Assembly: GCA_964016885.1 (NCBI GenBank)
Contig: OZ024742.1
Span: 37,076,001 to 37,140,000 of the forward strand
Direction of reading: 5' to 3'
Origin: Eledone cirrhosa
Lineage: Eukaryota
DNA length: 64,000 nt
The position numbers were made by a program, and so were the translations under genes. Shown in pieces: positions 27,937 to 61,700 of the stretch (its first letter is position 1; the number at the start of each line of letters is the position of its first letter). A model generated the notes under the pieces. That model ran no database searches, was not told the origin of the DNA, and saw only the letters and a list, made by a program, of their open reading frames with translations.

Positions 27937-28039
27937 GTGAGAATTTGGGGATGTATTGATGGTTGGTGGCCAATGTGGTGGGGATAGGGGTGGTTGTTGT
28001 TGTTGTTATCTGATATATTGAACAATGTGGTAGATTTAA

Positions 28040-35053: not shown

Positions 35054-35185
35054 GAACTGCTGCAGAGTATAATGAAAAAAATTGATGATGCAAACAACAC
35101 TTACAACATTTTGATACTTCAAGTTGAGGAATCTTCTTCAAATCTCGCAAATGTAAGAGAAGATTATGAGAAAGAGAAAGAAATG
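35054..35185 (+). CDS. Coiled-coil protein gene, internal exon C (ELLQSIMKKIDDANNTYNILILQVEESSSNLANVREDYEKEKEM)
   Basis: tatcAG acceptor after a pyrimidine tract, 132 nt open in phase 0, ATG|GTGAGT donor. Confidence 0.88.
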
Positions 35186-35239
35186 GTGAGTGTATTCTTC
35201 TGCTTGTTTTAGTTGATGGACTGTGACTCTGCTGGGACA

Positions 35240-35832
35240 CTGCCTTAATTTAGCTGATCCTATCAATACCAGTACATTTTTTTCCATAGCATCTAATATA
35301 AAGATGGGTTGGAAGAAGTTTAGGGAGCTGCTTCCTCTGTTGACAAAGAAGGGTTTCTCCCTACGAACGAAAGGCCAGTTATATGATGCATGTGTGAGAT
35401 GCGTGATGCTGCATGGTAGTGAGACATGGGCAGCAACTGCGGAGGATATGCGACGGCTGGAGAGAAATGAAGCAAGCATGCTCTGTTGGATGTGTAATGT
35501 CAATGTGCGTGAATGACCAAGCATATAAGAGGGATAAGGTGTAGTGTGTGGGAGAGAAGACTGCGTTGGTATGGACATGTGATGCATATGGAGGATGACC
35601 ACTGGGTAAAGAAGTGCCAAGAAATCACAATAGAAGGAAGATGCAGTAGAGGAAGACCACGAAAATCATGGGTGGAGGTGGTGAGAGCAGACCTCAGATC
35701 GCTGAGGCTCACGGAGGAGATGACAAAGGACCATAATGAATAGAGAGATGCTCTGCTGAATAGGACCCATCCCACCCTTGCAAGCAGGGAAAAGTGGACG
35801 TAAAATGGTGATGATGATGATGATGATGATGA
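35240..35832 (+). mobile_element. 5'-truncated LINE 3' end with (GAT)n tail
   Basis: GWKKFRELLPLLTKKGFSLRTKGQLYDACVRCVMLHGSETW and RLRWYGHV...RGRPRKSW (ORFs 35223..35516, 35513..35743), then a GATGATGAT tail. Confidence 0.85.
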
Positions 35833-35989
35833 CACAGCCATGTCATATATTTATTTGCTATGTCTGGAGGAAACCCTTCTGAGACTGATGAAATTGAGGC
35901 TGTTGATGTTCAGTTTAAATTGTTGCAGGTCAATTTCTGCAGGAAAATTATGTACAGGAAGAAAATTCAAGAGGGACGACATTCTGGAG

Positions 35990-36498: not shown

Positions 36499-38797
36499 GT
36501 AAATTTCATATTGAAACAATAGGTTGCTTTTTGGGGAAAGCAAGGATCAAATGGATTTTTTTAAAGGAAGAGTTAGCTGCTATTTCTAGCAATTCAAGCA
36601 GCTATATAGAAGATCTCACATTGGTGAAGTCACTATCTATGAGCTAATTTGTATTTGTTTTTTTGGTCAAATAGATCTTTTGGCGGGAGATTTGGCTACT
36701 ATACAAGTAGCAATATAGAGGCCCTCTCATTGGCTTAGTCACTATCAAAAACTTACTTACTTATACTTGTGTTGGTGTTCACCCAGAATGGGTTGAGTTG
36801 ACTTCAATCAGTGTATCCACTGCCTTTTGAACAGTGGTTGCCTATGCATGACAATCACTGATATCTGACACAGATATGGTCAGCCAGTAACGATTCCAAT
36901 GATAGACACCATATATAAAAAGACCAGATATTAGCTAAACATCTAACTTGATTGTGCCAATTCCCATCTTCAACTGTCCCCCTCGCCATTTGCACCTTCC
37001 TGGGAGGGTCTCAGGTATGACTGCATTACAGATGAATTCACCTTATGGGCAGAAGATGAAAAGAAAATGATTCATTGGATCCACGCAACTCCTGCTTTAC
37101 TAAAGAGGAACCTGTCTCTACTAATGAGAAACTGCAATCTGCAGAAGTATGTAACCTCTGTTAGTATTAGTTATTGAAAGGCCAAAATCACAGTTATCAA
37201 ACTGCACAAGGGTTCAAGCCCTTAATCTACAACCTGTTGTCGATACAAGCCAGGGATATCAATTACCCAGGATTTATGATGCTGCATCTTCAAACCCTGA
37301 TGGAAGAGATGTGGTCAATGACAGAGATCAACATGTTAAATCTATTCGATTGGAGAAAGCCAAATGACCTTTAAATACTGGTACTATAAACTTACGCAAC
37401 ATATAGCAGAAAAATAAACAAAATAAACAGCTCACAAAATTATTTAATGATGTCAACATGAACCTTTTAGCAGTATTTGATCACAAAATAGTGCACGAAC
37501 AAGAGATAAAATGCACTCAGTTGGAAAAGTGCCAACTAATTACAGCATCAGCATGGAAGAATGAGAGCAATGCCACATAAGTGGTGTGGGAATTATCCTT
37601 GACAAGGGAACTGAAATGGTACTTAGAAGTATCACGTGTCAATAACAGAATTATGACTGCAAGCTTTGGTGGGAATCCAGCTACCACAGCCATCATGCTC
37701 TATGCTCCAGTTGAAGGATCTCAGAATGCTGAGGAGCACTACAACAATCTTGCTATAATTTGTTCAGTCCCTGCTCACAACATGACAATCTTACTTGGTG
37801 ACTGTAATGTACACATTGGAACAAAAGATGGTTCTTTCACATTTCACGAACATACCAACAACAATGGCTACTTACTCTTGGACCTTGCATTGGAAACCAA
37901 TATGGTTATCTCAAGCACTCGGTTCCAGAAGAAAAAGGGCAAGCTCTGGACATTTGTCTCTGACAATTAAAAGTGGAAGAATTTTGTTTGAAATGTTGAA
38001 GATTACAACAGATTTGCAAGTCTTGACTCTGATTACAGGGTTTTGTCAGAACAAATTAAGCTCAGCTTACGTACTTGTGCATCACCAAGGAAGAAGCAGG
38101 CATATGATTGGAATACCCTGAAAAGCAATAGAGATCTACACTAACTGTATAGCGTCACAGTGAAAAATCGATTTGCTGCACTGCAAAGTGGATTGGAATC
38201 AATAACAGGCCTTTACCAACATTTAATTACAGCTACCAAAGAAGTGAAAGAACAAATGAAACCATCAAAGAATTGAGCTTGTTACAGCAAGGAAGAATGT
38301 GCAAAAAGCATTTAATTGCTTTCAAAAGAATGCCACTGAAGATCATAGGCTTGAATTGCAAACTGTCAAAGCTGCTCTTCAAAATGCCCATGACACAGTT
38401 GAGAAAGAGGAGCTAGACTGCATGGTTGATCAAGTTAAGATAGCAAATGCAAATTCAATGCTTAGAGAAAGCTAGAAACTGATTAATGAGATAAGTGGAA
38501 AGAGGACAGTGAAATCAGGAATCAACTAAGGAAACAGCAAGGAAGAGCATGTTCAAAAGTGGTATCAGCACTTCAACTAGTTGCTTGGAAAGTTTCCACT
38601 TGTTAATGAAGAGGATGATGAGGTTCAACATGTCTTCAACAATCTCACCTACAAAACTGGACCTTTTGACTTGAAAGAACTTCAAAGTGCCAAGAACAGA
38701 CTGAAGGAAGGAAAGGCTGCTGGCCCTGATGGAATCCCGCCTGCCTGAGGTTATAAAAAAATGCAATATGAACGACGTAGTACTGGATTTTGCAAAT

Positions 38798-39465
38798 CAT
38801 CATCATCAGTCCCTTGACTTCTGTAGTCGTCGGGGGGATCCTACTGCAGACGTAGTACACACTCAAAATAGTCTATCAACGGTGGCCGTCAACAAATCTG
38901 GTGTCATCATTTGCGTCCATTCTTTGACATTGTCCAACCAGTTTTTGTGTTGGCGTACCCTCCTGTGTACACCTTCAACAGTGTCTTCCATGATGGTCTT
39001 TCACAGGCTGTCATGTTGTGTGATGTGGCCAAACCACACCAGTTTTCTCCTCTTGACACTGGTGAGGAGAGGTTCCTTGTGACCCACAAAACTTTTAACC
39101 TTACTCTGCACATATTCATTAGTTTTACATTCCCAATAGGAAATACGAAGGAGTTTTCTCGTGAATTTGTCCTCAAATGCCTGGATCCTTCTCTCTGTGT
39201 CTGCCAAAAGTGTCCAGGTTTCACACCCAAGAGGAGGACGGAAACAACCAGCAATTTGTACAATCTGTACTTGGTCTGAAAACTGATGTTGCTCCTCCAT
39301 ATTCATGTCAATTTGGCCATCACTGCCATAGTTGCGGCAATCCACGTGTGGATTTCTGCAGTGCAGTACCATCTTTTGACAAAACTGAAACTGGACACTT
39401 CCTCCACTGAATGTCCGTTCATGGTGATGTTGACACAGGTGCTAATAGGCTCTTGCAAAACCAGG
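38798..39465 (-). mobile_element. Nested RTE LINE 3' fragment
   Basis: YKLLVVSVLLLG / CETWTLLADTERRIQAFEDKFTRKLLRISY...RRKLVWFGHI (ORFs 38907..39263, 39001..39372). (CAT)n at 38798 is its tail on the - strand. Confidence 0.8.
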
Positions 39466-39475
39466 AAAGTCCTAA

Positions 39476-39925
39476 TCATTATCATCATTTTACATCCGCT
39501 TTTCCCTGCTTGCAAGGGTGGGACGGGTCCTATTCAGCACAGCATCTCTCCATTCGTCATGGTCCTTTGTCATATCCTCCGTGAGCTTCAGCAATCTGAG
39601 GTCTGCTCTCACCACCTCTGCCCATGATTTTTGTGGTCTTCTTCTACTGCGTCTTCCTTCTACTGGGATTTCTTGGCACTTCTTTACCTAGCGATTATCC
39701 TGCCTGTGCATCACATGGCCATACCAATGCAGTCTTCTCTCCCACACACCACAGTTTCTCTCTCAACTTGTCTATGCTTGGTCATTCACGCACATTGACA
39801 TTGCACATGCAACTGAGCATGCTTGCTTCATTTCTCTCCAACCGTCGCATATTCTCCGCAGTTGCTGCCCATGTCTCACTATCAGGGATCATATAACCGG
39901 CCTTTCGTTCGTAGGGAGAAACCCT
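39476..39925 (-). mobile_element. Nested LINE 3' fragment, same family as 35240-35832 but inverted
   Basis: Reverse complement shares long stretches with 35350-35820 (GGGTTTCTCCCTACGAACGAAAGGCC, CCCACCCTTGCAAGCAGGGAAAAG, ATG tail). Confidence 0.85.
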
Positions 39926-41636: not shown

Positions 41637-41799
41637 GGTCCTGCAACTCCTCATAGAGTCGTATGGTCACCATATTGACATATGCCGTTTCTTGGACATT
41701 TTAAGCCTGGCAGAGCCCATCCCTCTCCAGCCCTGAGTACAGCAGATTTCTTCCAGAAAAAGATAGAAAGTGAGAGAGAGGAAATGAGAAAGAGATATA

Positions 41800-41950
41800 G
41801 AGGAAGAATCAACCCCAGTACTAGACTGGTACTTTTTTTTACCAACCTCGAAAGGGTGAAAGGCAAATTTGAACTCCGAGAGCAGAGAGCCAGAACGAAT
41901 ACCATATAGCATTCTATCTGATGTTCTAACGGCTCTACCAATTTGCCACC
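41800..41950 (-). mobile_element. SINE (GAGTTCAAAT family), reverse orientation
   Basis: Reverse complement reads GGTGGCAAATTGGTAGAGCCGTTAGAAC...GAGTTCAAATTTGCCTTTCACCCTTTCGAGG. Confidence 0.75.
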
Positions 41951-42449
41951 TATATATATATAAAGAGAGAGAGAGAGAGAGATATGTATGTATGCATATA
42001 TAAAAGAGAAAATAGAGCTAGAGGTATCTGCTTTTTTTAGGCAAATTCACGTTTTTCTAAAGTGGATGTGTAACAAAAGGGAAGAAGCAACTTACCAGTT
42101 AGTTAGTTGTGCTCAATGTAATCAAAGGAGTTGTGTAACATAAATATCTTGATGATACGAGATGCATCACTGAGTATGGTACATAGGTTCCAAGGATTAT
42201 TCCACAGAGTATTATAATATATACAGGATATCTATACTTGTTTAAGGTTAATATGCTGGTGCGTCCATTATCTAAAGGGTAATGTAGTATAAGTGTACTA
42301 TAAGTTAGTTGTGGTTGTGTATGTATGAAAGTGAGATGCGTGTATTACCTAAGCTAGTGCTATAGAATATATATAATGGTATGGAGGTTGATCAGTGGTA
42401 TAGATGCAAGGTTGTCGACATAAGGAATAGGAGAATTTAGAAGATTGTG

Positions 42450-42680
42450 TTAATATTGATGGTATTTTGAAAAGGTTTTCAGAGTTCTGTGTTGGCAATT
42501 AAAAATTCTGTCATATCTTGAGTTTAATAGATCTTTTCCTAACATAATCTCCAGTACTTCCAAGGAGCAGAGATCGCAATTGCATCTCTTCCCCTGATAT
42601 AACCTAGCAGATCGTAAAATTGACAATGATAACTCATAGACTATATTACTCTGTTTCAAATCCCAGATTTTCTTCACAAG
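42450..42680 (-). mobile_element. Penelope-like element, C-terminal (GIY-YIG-associated) fragment
   Basis: SILRSARLYQGKRCNCDLCSLEVLEIM..DLLNSRYDRIFNCQH fits the 'A..Y....C.LC..E...I....LLN.R.....C.H' ending of Penelope-like ORFs. Confidence 0.65.
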
Positions 42681-42754
42681 CAGTTAATTTCTGCAGGTCC
42701 AGATTTTTAAACAAGTGGGTGTGCACATATAGTTTTTTTTTTTTACATGTTTAT

Positions 42755-43545
42755 AAGTTCCCAAAAGGTTCATTGAAAATAGTAGAAAGCTTCTGCTATC
42801 TTGGTGATCTCATTAGTAGTGGTGATGGATGTACCAAACCTATTATAGTGAGAGTGAGAATGAGTTGGAAGAAGTTCAGGGTACTGTCACCTCTAGCAAT
42901 AAAAAGCTTTTCTATCAGTGAAGGGCAAATAATTTTATGCATGCATTCAAACTTGCAAGGCAATGAGACTGTGATCTGAAGTGGTTCGACCTACCTTGTG
43001 TCTCCAATTTACTCCGGACCAAGTCATCCACAGTCCATGTGACTTATACCTGACTGAGGATAACAGAAACTCTCTTATGTTTGCACAACATGTCCGCACT
43101 CGACCACGTCCTCAGGGGAAAGAGGCAGTCAATAGATCCTGCACCCCCATGTGACCCCACTCATCCTTCCACTTTTGGTAAGGCGTCCCCCAACTTCCAA
43201 CTGTCCTACAGAGACATGGACAACAAGTGCAAAAGATTTGTGGCAACTAAAAAGAAATGAAGCACATGCTTCACTGAATGTGCAATGTTTGTGGGCATGA
43301 ACAACAGAGAAGAAATGAACTGAGAGAAAAGTTGGGTATAAGAGGAATTGAATGTTACATGTAAGAAAGACAATTGCACTGGTATGAACATGTGATGTAG
43401 GAGAAAAAGTGTCAAGTGCTTAAATTGGATAGAACCTGTGGAAGAGGGTGACCAAAGAAGAGTGGTGATAAATAACCTAAAAAGCTGAACCTCACAAAAG
43501 GACTGAATGTACTGATGATATGCCATTATACAAAAGACCCATTCA
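42755..43545 (+). mobile_element. LINE 3' fragments (RTE-X-like) split by an unclassified ~230-bp insert at ~42975-43205
   Basis: LKIVESFCYLGDLISSGDGC...RVRMSWKKFR in ORF 42620..42979. A related downstream part continues after ~43205. Confidence 0.65.
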
Positions 43546-46510: not shown

Positions 46511-47309
46511 CTCATACTTTAGTTATTTTTCTTCCAAAGGCATTAAAATAAATGTTTACAATTATTACTGACATCAATAGAGACAGGATGTCATTAAAAT
46601 TAGAGAAATATATCGAAGTTTATCCAGTGTTATTCCAAGTGACAACATTAATAGGAGAAAAAGAAAAGAACCATTAACTTATATTCTACGTATTGACAGT
46701 GTAATATATTTATAGGGTTCCTAACGATAATTAATTGATTATATGTATGTATTTCTATTTAATCTTATATATTTGTTATCTGGCGATAAAATGTATGTAT
46801 ACTTGAAATCGGTACGGGTAAGAGGTTGATAGAAATGGAAATCTGGTTTATTCGACGACAGACCTTAGGTTTCCTTGCTTGACAAGATGAACATAGTTTG
46901 ATAATGTTGAATTATCTTATAGCGATGGAAATTTTAGCTCTTTGGGTCTCCGAATCATCTCCCTACTGGCTGCTATTAGGACGGAGTTGGCTACCCATAT
47001 GTGTTGGAATGTCCTTCACCCTTGCTCCCTCATTATCATCCACGGTAAGACGTTCTCCATTCTGTCCACTGGGATCGGAGTTAGCGTTGATATAGGTTGC
47101 TGATATGGCCAATGAAACCCCGAAAGAATTTGACGTACTCTCTCGTGTGTGTAGCGTTGAGTATCATTTTTAAAACCCGCGTCAAACGATTTTCTCATTT
47201 AACTTCCAACAAAATCAATATTGAAGTTTGGGTTAGCATCTCTTTATCTATCTGACTCTCTCTCTCTGTATATGTACACACACAGATTATATATAAATAA
47301 GTGTATGCC

Positions 47310-48164
47310 ATGCTTATTTTGTTTTTATTGCCCAACATTTTTTCTGTCTGCTTTTGTTCTTATATGGTGGAGTCATATCCAAATACATCTATTTATTGCA
47401 ATGGCACTGCTCAAAGTCCTATCAATATCGATACATTTTATATTAAAATAACTCTAATCAACAAGTTCTCATATATAAACAGAACCCGAATGGAATATTA
47501 TATGTTTATCAATGACAATATTTTGAAAATACAAATCGTAGGATTGTATCTTTTGAAAGGAGGTAACCTTAATGATACTTATATGCTCCTTCACATTCAT
47601 TTCTTTTGGAATTCTGGAAATATCACTCACGGATCTGAACATTCTATCAATAACCGGAGATTTCCACTGGAAATGCATATGATAAATCAGAATTCTCGTT
47701 ACAGGGACTTAGTTTCTGCATTAAACTATTGGAATGGTATGGCCATAGTGGTATTTTTCTTTGAATTAAGTAACTTTGACAACCCTAATCTCGATGAAAT
47801 TATCAACAATATTCCTTATGCAAACACAAGTCAAATGCTGACAGACTTCCAACTTAATCAGTTAATATCGAAAACATTAGACAGTTCTACAATTTATCAG
47901 TACAATGGTAGCCTAACAAATTTTCCTTGTTATGAGTGTGTTCTATGGATAGTTATTGATTCACCTATTCCTATATCTATTAGACAACTAAAACAAATCT
48001 GGAAAATAAGTGACAGCGATTATCTTGCCCGTAGTAATATCCATCCACAACGGCCACATAATAGACGAGCAATTCTTAAAATTGTATCAGCAGTTGATAA
48101 AACTATTAGTTTTAATCTGTTATTAGTCGTTTTTCAATGTTATATATTTAGTTTAAATATTTAA
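47310..48164 (+). CDS. Intronless alpha-carbonic anhydrase-like protein (284 aa), secreted and probably GPI/membrane-anchored, likely catalytically impaired (CARP-like)
   Basis: ORF 47301..48164, first in-frame ATG 47310 in gccATG context. Motifs CNGTAQSPINI, HIHFFW, GSEH, FPLEMH, YQYNGSLTNFPCYECVLWIV, PISIRQL, NIHPQRPHNRR. Hydrophobic N- and C-termini. Confidence 0.92.
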   Translation: MLILFLLPNIFSVCFCSYMVESYPNTSIYCNGTAQSPINIDTFYIKITLINKFSYINRTRMEYYMFINDNILKIQIVGLYLLKGGNLNDTYMLLHIHFFWNSGNITHGSEHSINNRRFPLEMHMINQNSRYRDLVSALNYWNGMAIVVFFFELSNFDNPNLDEIINNIPYANTSQMLTDFQLNQLISKTLDSSTIYQYNGSLTNFPCYECVLWIVIDSPIPISIRQLKQIWKISDSDYLARSNIHPQRPHNRRAILKIVSAVDKTISFNLLLVVFQCYIFSLNI

Positions 48165-48251: not shown

Positions 48252-48257
48252 AATAAA
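48252..48257 (+). terminator. Putative polyadenylation signal for the CA-like gene
   Basis: AATAAA ~88 nt after the stop, followed by GT/T-rich sequence (TGTTATTGTT). Confidence 0.45.
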
Positions 48258-48380
48258 GACAAATGTTATTGTTATATATTTACAAAATTTATTTCGTTTC
48301 TGGACACCTTTCTACAGGTGTAGAAACTATCCCAATGGAAAATTATATTTACTAGCAGAAATACCACCCTTCTGCTAGCA

Positions 48381-48824
48381 TGTGTAGTGTGTATATTGAT
48401 ATTATACGCACGTATATATGCATGTAGATATAATACATCAAATAAAATCGTAATTGACAATATACACAGAAATTGAACGAAAACTGTGTTACACTGCCTT
48501 GTGTAATCAGTAACGTAATCCATGATACATTAAAAAAAGACGATATTATATATAAACTGCATTAGGAGAAAATTAGTGACAGAAATATATGAATATTTAT
48601 TTAAACGATCACTAACCGTAAGTGTTGACATTTGAAAATTTTAAAGAAGTGAATCTTTAAATAAGTAATAAAATATATTTAATGAACAGCCACGAAATTT
48701 AGTGAATAAATTATGTAATATTCATTCATTATTTATTCAAAGTAATCCAACTTATTTTACCAAGGGGATAAAAAATGTTAAACCGTACGCAGTCCCGCGC
48801 TTCTTATTTTATTATAATTTAGAT
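48381..48824 (-). repeat. Right arm of ~445-bp inverted repeat
   Basis: Reverse complement of 45656-46103. Confidence 0.95.
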
Positions 48825-49119
48825 ATCAATAATGTTTTCAATTTCATGGCGAAAGTTGTGTATAATAGTTAGTAAAATTAGTTTCGTTTGAAGTTGTTAG
48901 TTTTGCTGTTTAGTTTTATCAATAATAGTAGAATAATAAAAATATATGAAACGAAGTTTAGTTAAGGATATTCCAGTTGAGATGGCACTAAGGAAGTACA
49001 TGGAAATATTTCCAGCAGCTAAGCAACTTTACACCTCTTTCTTTTTATTTTATTTTTATCTTTTTTAAATTCTATTTCTAGTAAGTGATCTCTGGTTATT
49101 TGTACTTATTTCAACTTTC

Positions 49120-49785
49120 AGAGTTACAGCCCTTTATGGTTTGAGTTCAAATCCCGCCGAGGTTAACTTTGCCTTTCATCCTTACGGGGTCGATAAAATA
49201 AAGTACCAGTAATGCGCTGGGATAATTGCTGGTCTTGTGCCAAAAGTAGAAACAATTATTAATTCTTTCATCTGAGTTCAAATCCCGCCGAGGTTAACCT
49301 TGCCTTTCATCCTTACGGGGTCGATAAAATAAAGCACCAATAATGCACTGAGGTCGATTTAATCGACTTTACCCTCTCCAAAAATTGCTGGCCTTGTGCC
49401 TATATAAGAAATCATTATTAATTTTTTCATCGGGCAGTGGATTGGCAGTATCGGTAGAGGGTCAGACGTCATGCTTTGACGCATAGAATTACGGCCCTCT
49501 CCATTTTGAGTTCAAATCCCGCTAAGGTCAACTTTGCCTTTCATCCTTACGGGGTCGATAAAATAAAGTACCAGTAATGTACTGAATAATTGCTGGCCTT
49601 GTGCCAAAAGTAGAAACAATTATTAATTCTTTCATAATTACGGGGTCGATAAAATACCAGTAACACACTGGATGCGATTTAATCGACTTTCTCCTCCATC
49701 AAAATTATTGGCCTTGTGCCTAAATCAGAAACCAATATTAACCCTTTCACAAGCATGCTGCATTGGCAGAATTGGTTGAGCACCT
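49120..49785 (+). mobile_element. Head-to-tail cluster of 3-4 SINE copies plus a final SINE head
   Basis: GAGTTCAAATCCCGC..AGGT.AAC.TTGCCTTTCATCCTTACGGGGTCGATAAAATAAAG.ACCA at ~49143, ~49274 and ~49508, partial copy at ~49638. A-box-like TGGCAG.AT.GGT at ~49443 and ~49764. Confidence 0.85.
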
Positions 49786-52700
49786 TGTTTTCCCCTGTCC
49801 ACCTTGTCTTCACCTGTGTGCCTTGTCTTCCTCTGTCTACCTTGTCTTCACCTGTCTACCTTGTCTTCATATGTCTACCTTGTCTTCATATGTCTACGTT
49901 GTCTTCACCTGTCTACCTTGTCTTCACCTGTCTACCTTGTCTTCATATGTCTACCTTGTCTTCACCTGTCTACCTTGTCTTCACCTGTCTACCTTGTCTT
50001 CACATGTCTACCTTGTCTTCATATGTCTACCTTGTCTTCATATGTCTACATTGTCTTCACCTGTCTACATTGTCTTCACCTGTCCACCTTGTCTTCACAT
50101 GTCTATCTTGTCTTCCCCTGTCTTCACATGTCTATCTTGTCTTCCCCTGTCTTCATATGTCTACCTTATCTTCACCTGTCCACCCTGTCTTCATATGTCT
50201 ACCTTGTCTTCATATGTCTACCTTGTCTTCACATGTCTACCTTGTCTTTATATGTCTACCTTGCCTTTATATGTCTACCTTGTCTTCACCTATCTACCTT
50301 GTCTTCATATGTCTACCTTGTCTTCACCTGTCTACTTTGTCTTCATATGTCTACCTTGTCTTCACCTGTCGATCTTGTCTTCACCTGTCTACCTTGTCTT
50401 CATATGTCTACCTTGTCTTCCCATGTCTACCTTGTCTTCACCTGTCTACCTTGTCTTCACCTGTCCAGCTTGTCTTCATATGTCTACCTTGTCTTCACCT
50501 CTCTACTTTGTCTTCACCTGTCTACCTTGTCTTCACCTGTCTACCTTGTCTTCATATGTCTACCTTGTCTTCACCTGTCTACCTTGTCTTCACCTGTCTA
50601 CCTTGTCTTCACCTGTCTACCTTGTCTTCATATGTCTACCTTGTCTTCATATGTCTACCTTGTCTTCACCTGTCTACCTTGTCTTCATATGTCTACCTTG
50701 TCTTCACCTGTCTACCTTGTCTTCACCTGTCTACCTTGTCTTCACCTGTCTACCTTGTCTTCATATGTCTACCTTGTCTTCATATGTCTACCTTGTCTTC
50801 ACCTGTCTACATTGTCTTCACCTGTCCACCTTGTCTTCACATGTCTACCTTGTCTTCATATGTCTTCCTTGTCTTCATATGTCTACCTTGTCTTCCCCTG
50901 TCTACCTTGTCTTCACCTGTCGACCTTGTCTTCACCTGTCTACCTTGTCTTCATATGTCTACCTTGTCTTCCCATGTCTACCTTGTCTTCACCTGTCTAC
51001 CTTGTCTTCACCTGTCCAGCTTGTCTTCATATGTCTACCTTGTCTTCACCTGTCTACCTTGTCTTCACCTGTCTACCTTGTCTTCACCTGTCTACCTTGT
51101 CTTCATATGTCTACCTTGTCTTCATATGTCTACCTTGTCTTCACCTGTCTACATTGTCTTCACCTGTCCACCTTGTCTTCACATGTCTATCTTGTCTTCC
51201 CCTGTCTTCATATGTCTACCTTATCTTCACCTGTCCACCCTGTCTTCATATGTCTACCTTGTCTTCATATGTCTACCTTGTCTTCACATGTCTACCTTGT
51301 CTTTATATGTCTACCTTGCCTTTATATGTCTACCTTGTCTTCACCTATCTACCTTGTCTTCATATGTCTACCTTGTCTTCACCTGTCTACTTTGTCTTCA
51401 TATGTCTACCTTGTCTTCACCTGTCGACCTTGTCTTCCCCTGTCTACCTTGTCTTCATATGTCTACCTTGTCTTCCCATGTCTACCTTGTCTTCACCTGT
51501 CTACCTTGTCTTCACCTGTCCAGCTTGTCTTCATATGTCTACCTTGTCTTCACCTCTCTACTTTGTCTTCACCTGTCTACCTTGTCTTCACCTGTCTACC
51601 TTGTCTTCATATGTCTACCTTGTCTTCATATGTCTACCTTGTCTTCACATGTCTACCTTGTCTTCACCTGTCTACCTTGTCTTCACCTGTCCACCTTGTC
51701 TTCATTATGTCTACCTTGTCTTCCCCTGTCTACCTTGTCTTCACCTGTCTACCTTGTCTTCACCTGTCTACCTTGCCTTCATATGTCTACCTTGTCTTCA
51801 CCTGTCTACCTTGTCTTCATATGTCTACCTTGTCTTCATATATCTACCTTGTCTTCACCTGTCTACCTTGTCTTCACCTGTCCACCTTGTCTTCATATGT
51901 CTACCTTGTCTACCTTGTCTTCACCTGTCTACCTTGTCTTCACCTGTCTACCTTGTCTTCACCTGTATACCTTGTCTGCATATGTCTACCTTGTCTTAAC
52001 CTGTCTACCTTGTCTTCATATGTCTACCTTGTCTTCACATGTCTACCTTGTCTTCACCTGTCTACCTTGTCTTCACCTGTATACCTTGTCTGCATATGTC
52101 TACCTTGTCTTCACCTGTCTACCTTGTCTTCATATGTCTACCTTGTCTTCACCTGTCTACCTTGTCTTCACCTGTCCACCTTGTCTTCATATGTCTACCT
52201 TGTCTTCATATATCTACCTTGTCTTCACCTGTCTACCTTGTCTTCACCTGTCCACCTTGTCTTCATATGTCTACCTTGTCTACCTTGTCTTCACCTGTCT
52301 ACCTTGTCTTCACCGGTCTACCTTGTCTTCACCTCTCTACCTTGTCTTCATATGTCTACCTTGTCTTCATATGTCTACCTTGACTTCACCTGTCTACCTT
52401 GTCTTCATATGTCTACCTTGTCTTCACCTGTCTACCTTGTCTTCACCTGTCTACCTTGTCTTCACCTGTCTACCTTGTCTTCATATGTCTACCTTGTTTT
52501 CATATGTCTACCTTGTCTTCACCTGTCTACCTTGTCTTCATATGTCTACCTTGTCTTCACCTGTCTACCTTGTCTTCATATGTCTACCTTGTTTTCATAT
52601 GTCTACCTTGTCTTCACCTGTCTACCTTGTCTTCACCTGTCTACCTTGTCTTCACCTTTCTACCTTGTCTTCATATGTCTACCTTGTCTTCACCTGTCTA

Positions 52701-55700
52701 CCTTGTCTTCATATGTCTACCTTGTCTTCATATGTCTACCTTGTCTTCATGTCTACCTTGTCTTCACCTGTCTACCTTGTCTTCATATCTCTACCTTGTC
52801 TTCACCTGTCTACCTTGTCTTCATATGTGTACCTTGTCTTCCCCTGTCTACCTAGTCTTCACCTGTCTCCCTTGTCTTCATATGTCTACCTTATCTTCAT
52901 ATGTTTACCTTGTCTTCATATGTCTTCCTTGTCTTCACCTGTCTACCTTGTCTTCACCTGTCTACCTTGTCTTCACCTGTCTACCTTGTCTTCATATGTC
53001 TACCTTGTCTTCCCCTGTCTACCTTGTCTTCACCTGTCTACCTTGTCTTAACCTGTCTACCTTGTCTTCACCTGACTATCTTGTCTTCATATGTCTACCT
53101 TGTCTTTACCTGTCTACCTTGTCTTCACCTGTCTCCCTTGTCTTGTCCTGTCTACCTTGTCTTCATATGTCTACCTTATCTTCACCTGTCTACCTTGTCT
53201 TCATATATCTACCTTGTCTTCACCTGTCTACCTTGTCTTCATATGTCTACCTTGTCTTTACATGTCTACCTTGTCATTATATGTCTAGCTTGTCTTCACC
53301 TGTCTACCTTGTCTTCATATGTCTACCTTATCTTCATATGTCTACCTTGTCTTCATATGTCTACCTTGTCTTCACCCGTCTACCTTGTCTTCATATGTCT
53401 ACCTTGTCTTCATATGTCTAACTTGTCTTCACCTGTCTACCTTATCTTCACCTGTCTACTCTTGTCTTCCCCTCTCTACCTTGTCTTCCCCTGTCTACCT
53501 TGTCTTCATATGTCTACCTTGTCTTCACCTGTCTATCTTGTCTTCCCCTGTCTACCTTGTCTTCCCCTGTCTACCTTGTCTTCACATGTCTACCTTGTCT
53601 TCATGTCTACCTTGTCTTCACCTATCTACCTTGTCTTCATATGTCTACCTTGTCTTCACCTGTCTACCTTGTCTTCACCTGTCTACCTTGTCTTCACCTG
53701 TCTACCTTGTCTTCATATGTCTACCTTGTCTTCCCCTGTCTACCTTGTCTTCACCTGTCTACCTTGTCTTCACCTGTCTACCTTGTCTTCACCTGTCCAC
53801 CTTGTCTTCACATGCCTATCTTGTCTTCCCCTGTCTACCTTGTCTTCATATGTCTACCTTATCTTCACCTGTCTACCTTGTCTTCATATGTCTACCTTGT
53901 CTTCATATGTCTACCTTGTCTTCACATGTCTACCTTGTCTTTATATGTCTACCTTGTCTTTATATGTCTACCTTGTATTCACATGTCTACCTTGTCTTTA
54001 TATGTCTACCTTGTCTTTATATGTCTATCTTGTCTTCATATGTCTACCTTGTCTTTACCTCTCTACCTTGTCTTCACCTGTCTACCTTGTCTTCCCCTGT
54101 CTACCTTGTCTTCATATGTCTACCTTATCTTCACCTGTCTACCTTGTCTTCATATATCTACCTTGTCTTCACCTGTCTACCTTGTCTTCATATGTCTACC
54201 TTGTCTTTACATGTCTACCTTGTCTTTATATGTCTAGCTTGTCTTCACCTGTCTACCTTGTCTTCATATGTCTACCTTGTCTTCATATGTCTACCTTGTC
54301 TTCATATGTCTACCTTGTCTTCACCTGTCTATCTTGTCTTCATATGTCTACCTTGTCTTCATATGTCTAACTTGTCTTCACCTGTCTACCTTGTCTTCAC
54401 CTGTCTACCCTTGTCTTCAACTGTCTACCTTGTCTTCCCCTGTCTACCTTGTCTTCATATGTCTACCTTGTCTTCACCTGTCTATCTTGTCTTCCCCTGT
54501 CTACCTTGTCTTCATATGTCTACGTTATCTTCACCTGTCTACCTTGTCTTCATATGTCTACCTTGTCTTCACCTGTCTACCTTGTCTTCATATCTCTACC
54601 TTGTCTTCACCTGTCTACCTTGTCTTCACCTGTCTACCTTGTCTTCCCCTGTCTACCTTGTCTTCACCTGTCTACCTTGTCTTCACCTGTCTACCTTGTC
54701 TTCACCTGTCCACCTTGTCTTCACATGCCTATCTTGTCTTCCCCTGTCTACCTTGTCTTCATATGTCTACCTTATCTTCACCTGTCTACCTTGTCTTCAT
54801 ATGTCTACCTTGTCTTCATATGTCTACCTTGTCTTCACATGTCTACCTTGTCTTTATATGTCTACCTTGTCTTTATATGTCTACCTTGTCTTCACATGTC
54901 TACCTTGTCTTTATATGTCTATATGTCTACCTTGTCTTCCCCTGTCTACCTTGTCTTCACCTGTCTACCTTGTCTTCATATGTTTAACTTGTCTTCACCT
55001 GTCTACCTTTTCTTCCCCTGTCTACCTTGTCTTCACCTGTCTAACTTGTCTTCCCCTGTCTACCTTGTCCTCACCTGTCTACCTTGTCATCATATGTCTA
55101 CCTTGTCTTCACCTGTCTACCTTGTCTTCACCTGTCTACCTTGCCTTCACCTGTCTACCTTGTCTTCATATGTCTACCTTGTCTTCACATGTCTACCTTG
55201 TCTTCACCTGTCGACCTTGTCTTCCCCTGTCTACCTTGTCTTCATATGTCTACCTTGTCTTCCCATGTCTACCTTGTCTTCACCTGTCTACCTTGTCTTC
55301 ACCTGTCCAGCTTGTCTTCATATGTCTACCTTGTCTTCACCTCTCTACTTTGTCTTCACCTGTCTACCTTGTCTTCACCTGTCTACCTTGTCTTCATATG
55401 TCTACCTTGTCTTCATATGTCTACCTTGTCTTCACATGTCTACCTTGTCTTCACCTGTCTACCTTGTCTTCACCTGTCCACCTTGTCTTCATTATGTCTA
55501 CCTTGTCTTCCCCTGTCTACCTTGTCTTCACCTGTCTACCTTGTCTTCACCTGTCTACCTTGCCTTCATATGTCTACCTTGTCTTCACCTGTCTACCTTG
55601 TCTTCATATGTCTACCTTGTCTTCATATATCTACCTTGTCTTCACCTGTCTACCTTGTCTTCACCTGTCCACCTTGTCTTCATATGTCTACCTTGTCTTC

Positions 55701-58700
55701 ACCTGTCTACCTTGTCTTCACCTGTCTACCTTGTCTTCACCTGTATACCTTGTCTGCATATGTCTACCTTGTCTTAACCTGTCTACCTTGTCTTCATATG
55801 TCTACCTTGTCTTCACATGTCTACCTTGTCTTCACCTGTCTACCTTGTCTTCACCTGTATACCTTGTCTGCATATGTCTACCTTGTCTTCACCTGTCTAC
55901 CTTGTCTTCATATGTCTACCTTGTCTTCACCTGTCTACCTTGTCTTCACCTGTCCACCTTGTCTTCATATGTCTACCTTGTCTTCATATATCTACCTTGT
56001 CTTCACCTGTCTACCTTGTCTTCACCTGTCCACCTTGTCTTCATATGTCTACCTTGTCTACCTTGTCTTCACCTGTCTACCTTGTCTTCACCGGTCTACC
56101 TTGTCTTCACCTCTCTACCTTGTCTTCATATGTCTACCTTGTCTTCATATGTCTACCTTGACTTCACCTGTCTACCTTGTCTTCATATGTCTACCTTGTC
56201 TTCACCTGTCTACCTTGTCTTCACCTGTCTACCTTGTCTTCACCTGTCTACCTTGTCTTCATATGTCTACCTTGTTTTCATATGTCTACCTTGTCTTCAC
56301 CTGTCTACCTTGTCTTCATATGTCTACCTTGTCTTCACCTGTCTACCTTGTCTTCATATGTCTACCTTGTTTTCATATGTCTACCTTGTCTTCACCTGTC
56401 TACCTTGTCTTCACCTGTCTACCTTGTCTTCACCTTTCTACCTTGTCTTCATATGTCTACCTTGTCTTCACCTGTCTACCTTGTCTTCATATATCTACCT
56501 TGTCTTCATATGTCTACCTTGTCTTCATGTCTACCTTGTCTTCACCTGTCTACCTTGTCTTCATATCTCTACCTTGTCTTCACCTGTCTACCTTGTCTTC
56601 ATATGTGTACCTTGTCTTCCCCTGTCTACCTAGTCTTCACCTGTCTCCCTTGTCTTCATATGTCTACCTTATCTTCATATGTTTACCTTGTCTTCATATG
56701 TCTTCCTTGTCTTCACCTGTCTACCTTGTCTTCACCTGTCTACCTTGTCTTCACCTGTCTACCTTGTCTTCATATGTCTACCTTGTCTTCCCCTGTCTAC
56801 CTTGTCTTCACCTGTCTACCTTGTCTTAACCTGTCTACCTTGTCTTCACCTGACTATCTTGTCTTCATATGTCTACCTTGTCTTTACCTGTCTACCTTGT
56901 CTTCACCTGTCTCCCTTGTCTTGTCCTGTCTACCTTGTCTTCATATGTCTACCTTATCTTCACCTGTCTACCTTGTCTTCATATATCTACCTTGTCTTCA
57001 CCTGTCTACCTTGTCTTCATATGTCTACCTTGTCTTTACATGTCTACCTTGTCATTATATGTCTAGCTTGTCTTCACCTGTCTACCTTGTCTTCATATGT
57101 CTACCTTATCTTCATATGTCTACCTTGTCTTCATATGTCTACCTTGTCTTCACCCGTCTACCTTGTCTTCATATGTCTACCTTGTCTTCATATGTCTAAC
57201 TTGTCTTCACCTGTCTACCTTATCTTCACCTGTCTACTCTTGTCTTCCCCTCTCTACCTTGTCTTCCCCTGTCTACCTTGTCTTCATATGTCTACCTTGT
57301 CTTCACCTGTCTATCTTGTCTTCCCCTGTCTACCTTGTCTTCCCCTGTCTACCTTGTCTTCACATGTCTACCTTGTCTTCATGTCTACCTTGTCTTCACC
57401 TATCTACCTTGTCTTCATATGTCTACCTTGTCTTCACCTGTCTACCTTGTCTTCACCTGTCTACCTTGTCTTCATATGTGTACCTTGTCTTCACCTGTCT
57501 ACCTAGTCTTCACCTGTCTCCCTTGTCTTCATATGTCTACCTTGTTTTCATATGTTTACCTTGTCTTCATATGTCTACCTTGTCTTCACCTGTCTACCTT
57601 GTCTTCACCTGTCTACCTTGTCTTCACCTGTCTACCTTGTCTTCATATGTCTACCTTGTCTTCCCCTGTCTACCTTGTCTTCACCTGTCTACCTTGTCTT
57701 CACCTGTCTACCTTGTCTTCACCTGTCCACCTTGTCTTCACATGCCTATCTTGTCTTCCCCTGTCTACCTTGTCTTCATATGTCTACCTTATCTTCACCT
57801 GTCTACCTTGTCTTCATATGTCTACCTTGTCTTCATATGTCTACCTTGTCTTCACATGTCTACCTTGTCTTTATATGTCTACCTTGTCTTTATATGTCTA
57901 CCTTGTATTCACATGTCTACCTTGTCTTTATATGTCTACCTTGTCTTTATATGTCTATCTTGTCTTCATATGTCTACCTTGTCTTTACCTCTCTACCTTG
58001 TCTTCACCTGTCTACCTTGTCTTCCCCTGTCTACCTTGTCTTCATATGTCTACCTTATCTTCACCTGTCTACCTTGTCTTCATATATCTACCTTGTCTTC
58101 ACCTGTCTACCTTGTCTTCATATGTCTACCTTGTCTTTACATGTCTACCTTGTCTTTATATGTCTAGCTTGTCTTCACCTGTCTACCTTGTCTTCATATG
58201 TCTACCTTGTCTTCATATGTCTACCTTGTCTTCATATGTCTACCTTGTCTTCACCTGTCTATCTTGTCTTCATATGTCTACCTTGTCTTCATATGTCTAA
58301 CTTGTCTTCACCTGTCTACCTTGTCTTCACCTGTCTACCCTTGTCTTCAACTGTCTACCTTGTCTTCCCCTGTCTACCTTGTCTTCATATGTCTACCTTG
58401 TCTTCACCTGTCTATCTTGTCTTCCCCTGTCTACCTTGTCTTCATATGTCTACGTTATCTTCACCTGTCTACCTTGTCTTCATATGTCTACCTTGTCTTC
58501 ACCTGTCTACCTTGTCTTCATATCTCTACCTTGTCTTCACCTGTCTACCTTGTCTTCACCTGTCTACCTTGTCTTCCCCTGTCTACCTTGTCTTCACCTG
58601 TCTACCTTGTCTTCACCTGTCTACCTTGTCTTCACCTGTCCACCTTGTCTTCACATGCCTATCTTGTCTTCCCCTGTCTACCTTGTCTTCATATGTCTAC

Positions 58701-61700
58701 CTTATCTTCACCTGTCTACCTTGTCTTCATATGTCTACCTTGTCTTCACATGTCTACCTTGTCTTCACATGTCTACCTTGTCTTTATATGTCTACCTTGT
58801 CTTTATATGTCTACCTTGTCTTCACATGTCTACCTTGTCTTTATATGTCTATATGTCTACCTTGTCTTCCCCTGTCTACCTTGTCTTCACCTGTATACCT
58901 TGTCTTCATATGTCTACCTTGTCTTCACCTGTCTACCTTGTCTTCATATGTTTAACTTGTCTTCACCTGTCTACCTTTTCTTCCCCTGTCTACCTTGTCT
59001 TCACCTGTCTAACTTGTCTTCCCCTGTCTACCTTGTCCTCACCTGTCTACCTTGTCATCATATGTCTACCTTGTCTTCACCTGTCTACCTTGTCTTCACC
59101 TGTCTACCTTGCCTTCACCTGTCTACCTTGTCTTCATATGTCTACCTTGTCTTCACATGTCTACCTTGTCTTCACCTGTCTACCTTGTCTTCACCTGTCC
59201 ACCTTGTTTTCATATGTCTACCTTGTCTTCCCCTGTCTACCTTGTCTTCACCTGTCTACCTTGTCTTCACCTGTCTACCTTGTCTTCATATGTCTACCTT
59301 GTCTTCACCTGTCTACCTTGTCTTCACCTGTCTACCTTGTCTTCACCTGTCTACCTTGTCTTCATATGTCTACCTTGTCTTCATATATCTACCTTGTCTT
59401 CACCTGTCTACCTTGTCTTCACCTGTCCACTTTGTCTTCATATGTCTACCTTGTCTTCCCCTGTCTAACTTGTCTTCATATGTCTACCTTGTCTTCACCT
59501 GTCTACCTTGTCTTCACCTGTCTACCTTGTCTTCATATGTCTACCTTGTCTTCATATATCTACATTGTCTTCACCAGTGTACCTTGTCTTCACCTGTCTA
59601 CCTTGTCTTCATATGTCTACCTTGTCTTCACCTGTCTACCTTGTCTTCACCTGTCTACCTTGTCTTCACCTGTCTACCTTGTCTTCATATGTCTACTTTG
59701 TCTTCCCCTGTCTACCTTGTCTTCACCTGTCTACCTTGTCTTCACCTGTCTACCTTGTCTTCATATGTCTACCTTGTCTTCCCCTGTCTACCTTGTCTTC
59801 ACCTGTCTACCTTGTCTTCACCTGTCTACCTTGTCTTCATATGTCTACCTTGTCTTCACCTGTCTACCTTGTCTTCACCTGTCTACCTTGTCTTCATATG
59901 TCTACCTTGTCTTCATATATCTACATTGTCTTCACCTGTGTACCTTGTCTTCACCTGTCTACCTTGTCTTCATATGTCTACCTTGTCTTCACCTGTCTAC
60001 CTTGTCTTCATATGTCTACCTTGTCTTCACCTGTATACCTTGTCTTCATATGTCTACCTTGTCTTCACCTGTCTACCTTGTCTTCACATGTCTACATTGT
60101 CTTCATGTCTACTTTGTCTTCACCTGTCTACCTTGTCTTCATATGTCTACCTTGTCTTCCTCTGTCTACCTTGTCTTCACCTGTCTACCTTGTCTTCACC
60201 TGTCTACCTTGTCTTCACCTGTCTACCTTATCTTCATATGTCTACCTTGTCTTCATATGTCTACCTTGTCTTCCTCTGTCTACCTTGTCTTCACCTGTCT
60301 ACCTTGTCTTCACCTGTCTACCTTGTCTTCATATGTCTACCTTGTCTTCACCTGTCTACCTTGTCTTCACCTGTCTACCTTGTCTTCACCTGTCTACCTT
60401 ATCTTCATATGTCTACCTTGTCTTCCTCTGTCTACCTTGTCTTCACCTGTCTACCTTGTCTTCACCTGTATACCTTGTCTTCATATGTCTACCTTGTCTT
60501 CACCTGTCTACCTTGTCTTCATATGTCTACCTTGTCTTCCCCTGTCTAACTTGTCTTCACATGTCTACCTTGTCTTCACCTGTCTACCTTGTCTTCACCT
60601 GTATACCTTGTCTTCATATGTCTACCTTGTCTTCACCTCTCTACCTTGTCTTCACCTGTCTACCTTGTCTTCACCTGTCTACCTTGTCTTCATATGTCTA
60701 CCTTGTCTTCACCTGTCTACCTTGTCTTCATATGTCTACCTTGTCTTCACATGTCTACCTTGTCTTCACCTGTCTACCTTGTCTTCACCTGTCCACCTTT
60801 TCTTCATATGTCTACCTTGTCTTCCCCTGTCTACCTTGTCTTCACCTGTCTACCTTGTCTTCACCTGTCTACCTTGTTTTCATATGTCTAGCTTGTCTTC
60901 ACCTGTCTACCTTGTCTTTACCTGTCTACCTTGTCTTCACCTGTCTACCTTGTCTTCATATGTCTACCTTGTCTTCATATATCTACCTTGTCTTCACCTG
61001 TCTACCTTGTCTTCACCTGTCCACCTTGTCTTCATATGTCTACCTTGTCTACCTTGTCTTCACCTGTCTACCTTGTCTTCACCTGTCTACCTTGTCTTCA
61101 TATGTCTACCTTGTCTTCACCTGTCTACCTTGTCTTCACCTGTCTACCTTGTCTTCATATGTCTAGCTTGTCTTCACCTGTCTACCTTGTCTTTACCTGT
61201 CTACCTTGTCTTCACCTGTCCACCTTGTCTTCATATGTCTACCTTGTCTACCTTGTCTTCACCTGTCTACCTTGTCTTCACCTGTCTACCTTGTCTTCAT
61301 ATGTCTACCTCGTCTTCACCTGTCTACCTTGTCTTCATATATCTACCTTGTCTTCACCTGTCTACCTTGTCTTCACCTGTCTACCTTGTCTTCATATGTC
61401 TACCTTGTCTTCACCTGTCTACCTTGTCTTCATATGTCTACCTTGTCTTCACATGTCTACCTTGTCTTCATGTCTACCTTTTCTTCACCTGTCTACCTTG
61501 TCTTCATATCTCTACCTTGTCTTCACCTGTCTACCTTGTCTTCATATGTGTACCTTGTCTTCCCCTGTCTACCTAGTCTTCACCTGTCTCCCTTGTCTTC
61601 ATATGTCTACCTTGTCTTCATATGTTTACCTTGTCTTCATATGTCTACCTTGTCTTCCCCTGTCTACCTTGTCTTCACCTGTCTATCTTGTCTTCATATG

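What the first reader, a model, noticed from the sequence alone, without database searches (positions are those of the whole stretch)
47310..48164. CA-like ORF has a rewired active site but an intact frame
Seen, against canonical alpha-CA motifs (human CA II numbering): QxHxHW reads HIHFFW, so zinc ligand His96 is Phe and Gln92 is His. His94, Glu106, His107, Glu117, His119 and Thr199 are kept. TTPPC reads TNFPC, the His64 region reads NDNI, and NxRPxQP reads NIHPQRP. It has a signal-peptide-like N-terminus, the Cys pair typical of extracellular CAs, many N-glycosylation sequons (NTS, NGT, NRT, NDT, NIT, NGS) and a hydrophobic C-tail. Known: loss of a zinc His defines acatalytic CA-related domains (CA8/10/11, PTPRG/PTPRZ, poxvirus D8), which act as binding modules. 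Inference: an 855-nt stop-free frame in very AT-rich DNA implies selection or recent origin. It may be a surface ligand-binding protein, or the new His at position 92 may offer an alternative metal site.
Basis: partly seen in the sequence, partly recalled or inferred. Interest (0 to 1): 0.75.

Follow-up and report, generated by a model that had tools for sequence, protein, structure and literature searches.

The report
Octopod retrogene encoding disabled carbonic anhydrase
An intron-free copy of a carbonic anhydrase gene, shared with other octopods, keeps its frame and predicted fold but has lost a zinc-binding histidine and the proton shuttle, so it likely encodes a non-catalytic cell-surface protein of a kind that animals have evolved several times.

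Summary
47310-48164 (+) is an intact 284-aa alpha-carbonic anhydrase (CA) ORF with His96->Phe (TTT, two bases from His; matched by three short-read contig sets of one sample), Gln92->His and no His64. It is not an assembly error, a young pseudogene or a viral/parasite gene. It is the only intronless CA among 11 CA loci found in this genome. It forms a clade (100/100) with Octopus bimaculoides XP_052826225.1 (41% identical) and one unnamed protein, next to an 8-exon canonical GPI-type CA of the same genome, so it is likely an old retrogene. Each clade member lost different catalytic parts (here His96; in the other two Glu106 and Thr199, plus His96 in one); all lack His64. The 'rewired' His92 site is not supported: His92 sits beside an intact triad in 4 of 72 relatives and in a paralog here, and both orthologs have Gln92. 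Best reading (0.62): a selected, likely non-catalytic, GPI-type surface glycoprotein, i.e. another independently derived extracellular CA-related protein, as already described in cnidarians and Toxoplasma. Expression and ligand are untested. A new member of a known kind; moderate-low interest.

The parts
47310..48164 (+). Single-exon ORF, 284 aa (P0001), alpha-CA-related protein
   Evidence: only full-length, intronless PF00194 match of 28 matches in G000
47310..47360 (+). Signal-peptide-like hydrophobic N-terminus (aa 1 to about 17)
   Evidence: hydropathy peak 2.42; aligns with the N-termini of P0154 and P0018; no signal-peptide predictor run
47391..48077 (+). Alpha-carbonic anhydrase domain, aa 28-256
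   Evidence: PF00194 E 9.6e-49; AlphaFold2 mean pLDDT 90.7; Foldseek to CA II E 3e-24, TM about 0.84 by target length
47517..47519 (+). Asn70 at the His64 proton-shuttle position; the loop is replaced in all 3 clade members
47592..47606 (+). His95 (pos. 92), His97 (His94 kept), Phe99 (His96 lost; codon TTT at 47604-47606)
   Evidence: codon matched by contigs of X1-X3
47637..47678 (+). Glu110 (Glu106), His111 (His107), Glu121 (Glu117), His123 (His119), all kept
47916..47930 (+). Thr203 (Thr199 kept), Thr200->Asn, Pro201->Phe, Cys207 (predicted disulfide partner of Cys30)
48090..48161 (+). Small-residue stretch, spacer and hydrophobic C-tail resembling a GPI signal
   Evidence: same layout in P0154 and the C1 paralog; no GPI predictor run
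48252..48257 (+). AATAAA, candidate polyadenylation signal 88 nt after the stop
   Evidence: function untested
47252..47285 (+). Branch-point-like CTGAC, (CT)n tract and CAG: candidate acceptor of a 5'-UTR intron
   Evidence: sequence; speculative, no RNA

Best explanation
This is an intronless alpha-carbonic anhydrase gene of an octopod-associated clade, likely an old retrocopy of a GPI-type CA, that lacks His96 and His64 and is predicted to encode a non-catalytic, glycosylated cell-surface protein likely acting by binding rather than by CO2 hydration. Shown: intact frame, the lesions, no introns where the C1 paralog has seven, orthologs with other lesions, constraint on family-conserved sites. 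Inferred steps: (1) an mRNA of the C1-type membrane CA lineage was reverse-transcribed and inserted; (2) the His64 loop was lost in the clade ancestor and catalysis stopped being selected; (3) lineages then lost different catalytic residues (His96 here, Glu106/Thr199 in the other two) while the fold, disulfide, signal peptide and tail were kept; (4) the protein would be GPI-tethered outside the cell and use the remodelled cleft or loops to bind a partner, as the CA domains of PTPRG/PTPRZ do (recalled).
For: Only intronless match among 11 CA loci; the other 27 of 28 PF00194 matches are exon-sized. The 8-exon C1 gene is canonical (three His, Glu106, Thr199, His64), 33% identical, with the same signal/tail layout; its 7 intron positions are bridged by the ORF. 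Tree: clade with P0154 and P0018 100/100, joined to the C1 group at 94/90 (99 and 92 in the 76-row quick tree). P0009 and P0018 find this ORF as best hit in G000, and it finds them as its top two single-domain hits. Age and constraint: synonymous sites against C1 saturated (pS 0.78) with pN 0.44; identity to P0154 is 50 of 85 at conserved columns against 61 of 188 elsewhere (Fisher p 6e-5); neutral substitution to 60% identity left 0 of 2000 simulated frames open. His96 is His in 72 of 72 other CAs. Fold confidently predicted. Precedent: secreted CARPs arose many times in cnidarians (PMC4981384, passages); a GPI-anchored Toxoplasma CARP with His94->Phe was inactive (PMC5437132, passages).
Against: No expression evidence here. 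Both allelic differences inside the ORF are nonsynonymous (N51D, I216T), composition is AT-skewed (FYMINK 42% against 30-34% in five relatives), and six family-conserved residues are lost on this branch alone, which also fits weakening selection. A frame would stay open in 14% of neutral runs down to 90% identity, so recent loss of function is not excluded. The join to the C1 group is not starred and includes a misplaced long-branch row. Whether the orthologs are intronless was not seen, so retroposition is inferred from this genome alone. Signal peptide and GPI are judged by eye and hydropathy only. No partner is known.
Confidence: 0.62

Rival explanations
1. A retrogene that was functional for most of its history but is now decaying or silent in this lineage.
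For: 2 of 2 allelic differences are nonsynonymous, one (I216T) at a column that is Phe in 78% of relatives; long terminal branch (0.88 changes per site); AT-skewed composition; loss of Trp16, Pro201, Arg246 and Gln249, which both orthologs keep.
Against: Frame, start context, both Cys and the tail are intact on both alleles seen; neutral decay to 80% identity leaves only 35 of 2000 frames open; two SNPs are uninformative (about 70% of random changes are nonsynonymous).
Confidence: 0.17
2. A metal site persists (His94, His119, water, perhaps the new His92) and the protein keeps weak CO2-hydrase or esterase activity or binds metal: the first reader's rewired site.
For: His94, His119, Glu106, Glu117 and Thr199 are kept in this ORF, unlike in its orthologs. 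Some His replacements retain activity: His94->Asn in CA II and the Gln119 eta-CA (PMC5437132, passages).
Against: Phe cannot ligate metal, unlike Asn or Gln. His92 occurs with an intact triad in 4 of 72 relatives, including a coelacanth CA4-like and a prawn CA2-like protein, and in the C20 paralog, so it is an ordinary second-shell variant. Both orthologs have Gln92, including P0018 which also lost His96. His64, Thr200 and Pro201 are also gone. A His92/His94 pair would be expected to need residue 121 as third ligand (structural reasoning from recalled CA II geometry), and that is Ile.
Confidence: 0.13
3. A horizontally acquired (bacterial, viral or parasite) intronless CA, or a contaminant.
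For: Intronless and AT-rich; one unnamed long-branch row (P0160) falls inside the neighbouring group in the tree.
Against: Lies in a 379-Mb contig with short-read support; the closest named relative is an O. bimaculoides gene on a 97.8-Mb contig; groups with the C1 paralog and away from P0003/P0162; signal plus GPI-like tail matches the C1 gene.
Confidence: 0.03
4. A young processed pseudogene or an assembly error at the Phe codon.
For: Intronless copy in repeat-rich DNA.
Against: No close parent: best paralog 33% identical, third-position identity 37%; orthologs exist; TTT differs from His codons at two bases and is read in X1-X3.
Confidence: 0.01

Closest known systems
Octopus bimaculoides XP_052826225.1 / UniProt A0A0L8GUI8 (automatic name 'carbonic anhydrase 2-like')
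   Same: Probable ortholog: 41% identical, mutual best hit with G000, same replaced His64 loop, same start context and tail.
   Different: Keeps His94/96/119 and Gln92 but has Glu106->Ala and Thr199->Pro; 3 sequons against 7. Its exon structure was not seen.
Polyphyletic secreted CARPs of cnidarians (e.g. Corallium CruCA2; PMC4981384, passages read)
   Same: Extracellular alpha-CAs that lost zinc His independently and repeatedly from active paralogs; CruCA2 also has Pro at the Thr gatekeeper.
   Different: Other phylum and origin (some by tandem duplication); second disulfide; no retroposition reported in the passages seen.
Toxoplasma TgCA_RP (PMC5437132, passages read)
   Same: GPI-anchored CA-related protein with a zinc His replaced by Phe, gatekeepers kept, His64 lost; inactive when assayed, yet needed for rhoptry biogenesis.
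   Different: Eta-class-like; Phe is at 94 and His119 is Gln; unrelated origin.
CA domains of PTPRG/PTPRZ (PDB 3jxh, 5e5u)
   Same: Top sequence hits in the PDB (E 1e-26, level with CA II); acatalytic extracellular binding modules (function recalled).
   Different: They lose His94 and His119 and keep His96; they are domains of long receptors, while this ORF ends in a hydrophobic tail.
CARP VIII/X/XI clade
   Same: Acatalytic alpha-CA fold.
   Different: Conserved R-H-Q type triad and slow evolution (PMC4981384); five CARP-like loci of G000 form their own clade (100/99) without this ORF.
GPI-anchored CA IV / CA XV type and the canonical C1 paralog (G000:C1:403649954-403664219)
   Same: Signal peptide, Cys23-Cys203, hydrophobic tail; likely parent lineage.
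   Different: Eight exons and a complete active site in C1.

Membership tests
alpha-carbonic anhydrase fold (PF00194) | Profile match above the curated cut-off and CA fold | tested here: met
   166.7 bits against cut-off 27; Foldseek CA II E 3e-24
catalytic alpha-CA | Zinc triad His94/His96/His119 | tested here: not met
   His96 is Phe
catalytic alpha-CA | Gatekeepers Glu106 and Thr199 | tested here: met
   Glu110, Thr203; the flanking Thr200 and Pro201 are changed
catalytic alpha-CA | Proton shuttle His64 (not obligatory; His in 57 of 72 relatives) | tested here: not met
   Asn70
catalytic alpha-CA | Zn binding and CO2 hydration | not testable with these tools
   needs assay
CA-related protein (functional sense) | CA fold lacking at least one zinc His | tested here: met
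   definition as in PMC5437132 and PMC4981384
CA-related protein (functional sense) | Measured lack of activity | not testable with these tools
   needs assay
CARP VIII/X/XI clade | Groups with the CARP clade; position 94 replaced (R-H-Q type) | tested here: not met
   His94 and His119 kept; separate from the five CARP-like loci (those loci are labelled CARP-like by motif, no named CARP was in the tree)
receptor phosphatase CA domain (PTPRG/PTPRZ) | CA domain continued by FN3, transmembrane and phosphatase domains | tested here: not met
   ORF stops 28 aa after the domain, as do both orthologs; splicing to distant exons cannot be excluded without RNA
GPI-anchored CA (CA IV/XV type) | Signal peptide, Cys23-Cys203, omega site plus hydrophobic tail | tested here: inconclusive
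   Cys pair met; termini hydrophobic; no predictor available; omega+2 would be Val here, Ala in P0154
retrogene | No introns where the parent has them; unlinked to the parent | tested here: met
   7 C1 intron positions bridged; C3 versus C1
retrogene | Poly(A) remnant and target-site duplication | tested here: inconclusive
   none obvious by eye; not expected at saturated divergence; no dedicated search run
retrogene | Transcribed | not testable with these tools

The most novel reading that the evidence does not exclude
An octopod-specific retrogene turned a GPI-anchored carbonic anhydrase into a fast-evolving surface recognition protein, for example on gametes, in the way the egg receptor JUNO is a folate receptor that lost its ligand (recalled analogy). 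Its emptied cleft, remodelled differently in each lineage (His96->Phe here, His96->Tyr plus Glu106/Thr199 loss, or Glu106/Thr199 loss alone), would be the species-specific binding site.
Probability: 0.1. Interest if true: 0.7.

Novelty: new member of a known kind. Interest (0 to 1): 0.33.

Why it matters
It adds a cephalopod case to the repeated conversion of extracellular carbonic anhydrases into pseudo-enzymes, with an unusually clean history: a known parent type, a likely retroposition, and three orthologs that each broke the active site in a different way. It also shows that the public name 'carbonic anhydrase 2-like' for the O. bimaculoides ortholog probably overstates its activity. If the protein proves tissue-restricted and binds a partner it would be a lineage-specific octopod surface receptor; otherwise it is an annotation correction.

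Tried and rejected
No RNA holder was listed for the stretch; this is no evidence on expression. RAD-seq runs X4-X6 gave almost no reads on the ORF and none on the Phe codon. dN/dS against the C1 paralog could not be estimated (pS 0.78, saturated) and no DNA of the orthologs was held. The first exon assembly of the C1 gene had off-by-one boundaries; its numbers were discarded and replaced. Word-seeded homolog searches found only 2 distant hits with the ORF, no clade member beyond P0009 and P0018 among 12 hits with the alignment, and no shorter fragments, so the clade's range (squid, cuttlefish, Nautilus) is open. The ESM Atlas returned only generic CA clusters. Pfam on 22 other open frames of 27.0-49.7 kb found one sub-threshold hit and no neighbour gene, so synteny was not tested. 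Metal-site geometry could not be measured, as model coordinates are not returned; the VIA-align look gave no result. Ten literature searches gave no paper on this gene or clade; the two accessions had 0 occurrences in the 12 of 13 papers listed. Accessions XP_052826225 and A0A0L8GUI8 could not be mapped to the six O. bimaculoides CAs listed in the supplement of PMC6639325, so it may be among them under an older number. A0A0L8GUI8 and six clade peptides were absent from the O. vulgaris skin-mucus supplement (PMC10138644; file cut when stored). Supplements of other octopus proteome or expression papers were not seen and may hold tissue data. Three look-ups in earlier findings returned nothing. 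No complex prediction was run: no candidate partner.

Full report
Observation. The window holds a 284-codon ORF at 47310-48164 on the + strand between large satellite arrays. It matches Pfam PF00194 at E 9.6e-49. An AlphaFold2 model built on a 75-row alignment has mean pLDDT 90.7 and superposes on human CA II (Foldseek E 3e-24, rmsd 2.2-2.6 A). There are seven sequons and hydrophobic termini. The Phe codon is TTT, two bases from His, and contigs of three short-read runs of one sample span the ORF without a difference there. An assembly error is excluded.

Where it comes from. The genome G000 is 3.0 Gb. A PF00194 search gave 28 matches from 46 candidates; 27 are exon-sized pieces of 10 other loci and only this one covers the domain in one frame (counts are lower bounds). 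The nearest paralog, on C1, was assembled from its GT-AG exons: 8 exons, 290 aa, complete active site, signal peptide, hydrophobic tail, 33% identical. The ORF runs through all seven of its intron positions. A scan of 1.84 billion representatives put two single-domain proteins ahead of all other single-domain hits: P0009 (E 1e-59, 41%) and P0018 (E 2e-50, 39%). P0009 and its cluster mate P0154 are Octopus bimaculoides A0A0L8GUI8 / XP_052826225.1; P0018 is unnamed. Both find this ORF as best match in G000. In a 26-row tree the three form a clade at 100/100, joined at 94/90 (not starred) to the C1 gene and two unnamed relatives, with one long-branch row misplaced inside that neighbour group; five CARP-like loci form a separate clade. 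A 76-row quick tree agrees (99 and 92). The simplest history is an old retroposition from the C1-type membrane CA lineage. This is inferred from one genome, because the orthologs' exon structure was not seen.

Selection. Against C1, synonymous sites are saturated (pS 0.78) and pN is 0.44, so the copy is old. Identity to the O. bimaculoides ortholog is 50 of 85 at family-conserved columns and 61 of 188 elsewhere (p 6e-5), which reflects constraint on the two branches together. The terminal branch is about 0.9 changes per site; in neutral simulations with substitutions only, 0 of 2000 frames stayed open at 60% identity, 6 at 70%, 35 at 80% and 286 at 90%. The frame was therefore selected over most of the branch, but a recent loss of function is not excluded. 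Against the functional reading: both allelic differences in the ORF are nonsynonymous (N51D, I216T), the composition is AT-skewed, and six conserved residues (Trp16, His96, Val121, Pro201, Arg246, Gln249) differ from the O. bimaculoides ortholog and the family on this branch (P0018 also changed 96 and 121).

Active site. All three clade members lack the His64 loop. This ORF lost His96, which is His in 72 of 72 outside rows. P0154 keeps the three His but has Ala106 and Pro199. P0018 has Tyr96, Ala106 and Pro199. Of 39 columns at least 90% conserved in the outside rows, the three have lost 10, 8 and 11; outside rows lose a median of 1, though those rows define the columns. Different lesions in each lineage are what one expects if catalysis stopped being selected in the ancestor while the fold was kept. 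His92 is not special: 4 of 72 outside rows carry it with an intact triad, among them a coelacanth CA4-like and a prawn CA2-like protein, as does the C20 paralog of this genome, and P0018 lost His96 while keeping Gln92. In CA II, His94->Ala gives the largest loss of zinc affinity among the mutants compiled in PMC10175565 (passage); data on His96 mutants are recalled only (Kiefer and Fierke 1994, seen as a reference entry). Activity can survive His->Asn or His->Gln (PMC5437132, passages), but Phe has no donor atom. I could not measure the geometry, so a weak two-His metal site stays possible (0.13).

Mechanism. Most likely (0.62) the protein is secreted, glycosylated, GPI-tethered and non-catalytic, and works by binding a partner at the cell surface. 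Shown: frame, lesions, intron loss relative to C1, orthologs, constraint. Predicted: fold. Inferred: retroposition, GPI anchor, inactivity, binding role. Untested: expression, tissue, partner.

Comparison. It works like other extracellular CA-related proteins. Secreted CARPs arose many times in cnidarians (PMC4981384, passages); Toxoplasma has an inactive GPI-anchored CARP with a zinc His replaced by Phe (PMC5437132, passages); mussel mantle CAs with changed His residues are also reported (PMC6639325, passages, section 19 and supplement rows). It is not a member of the CARP VIII/X/XI clade or a receptor phosphatase domain by the tests above. Ten searches of the held library (listings and abstract openings) showed no paper on this clade; subscription papers and most supplements were not covered. 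Other papers opened: PMC13367328 and PMC7460868 (passages, nothing bearing), PMC10138644 (passages and supplement searches, no clade peptide).

Verdict. Real, correctly described, and explained as a lineage-specific CA pseudo-enzyme. The part that made it look striking, a rewired metal site, is not supported. New member of a known kind; interest 0.33. The boldest open reading, a fast-evolving recognition protein, has probability about 0.1 and needs expression data first.

Noticed in passing
G000:C2:77849538-77877065 (-); loci L018, L021, L029, L042, L043: A second degenerate alpha-CA, with introns: Glu at position 94 and Pro at 199; long branch, not grouped with the window clade. Could be another pseudo-enzyme or a receptor phosphatase CA domain.
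   Followed up: partly
G000:C20:17922900-17938731 (-); loci L007, L026, L027, L044: Multi-exon CA with His at position 92 beside an intact His94/96/119 triad, Glu106 and Thr199, and a hydrophobic tail.
   Followed up: yes
G000:C1:403649954-403664219 (-); loci L033-L035: Canonical 8-exon GPI-type alpha-CA with a 15-nt second exon; likely parent lineage of the window gene.
   Followed up: yes
G000 C5 (35.2 and 38.5-38.8 Mb), C27 (10.6 Mb), C3 (123.9-124.0 Mb), C14 (45.9 Mb): Five CARP-like multi-exon loci with Lys at the His94 position, forming one clade (100/99).
   Followed up: partly
window 5-26746, 28027-29790, 49782-64000: Large satellites of 32, 17 and 19 bp units; the 19-bp array gives many long spurious ORFs on the + strand. 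The gene sits in a 20-kb island between them.
   Followed up: no
window 35138-35850, 37581-39896, 41651-42979: Broken frames that read like LINE endonuclease and reverse-transcriptase remnants (recalled resemblance; no Pfam hit).
   Followed up: no
window 48350-48830: Very high-copy dispersed repeat starting about 190 nt after the stop codon (summed contig depth above 1e5).
   Followed up: no
window 47252-47285: Branch-point-like motif, pyrimidine tract and CAG 25 nt before the ATG; possible 5'-UTR intron acceptor, as often gained by retrogenes.
   Followed up: no
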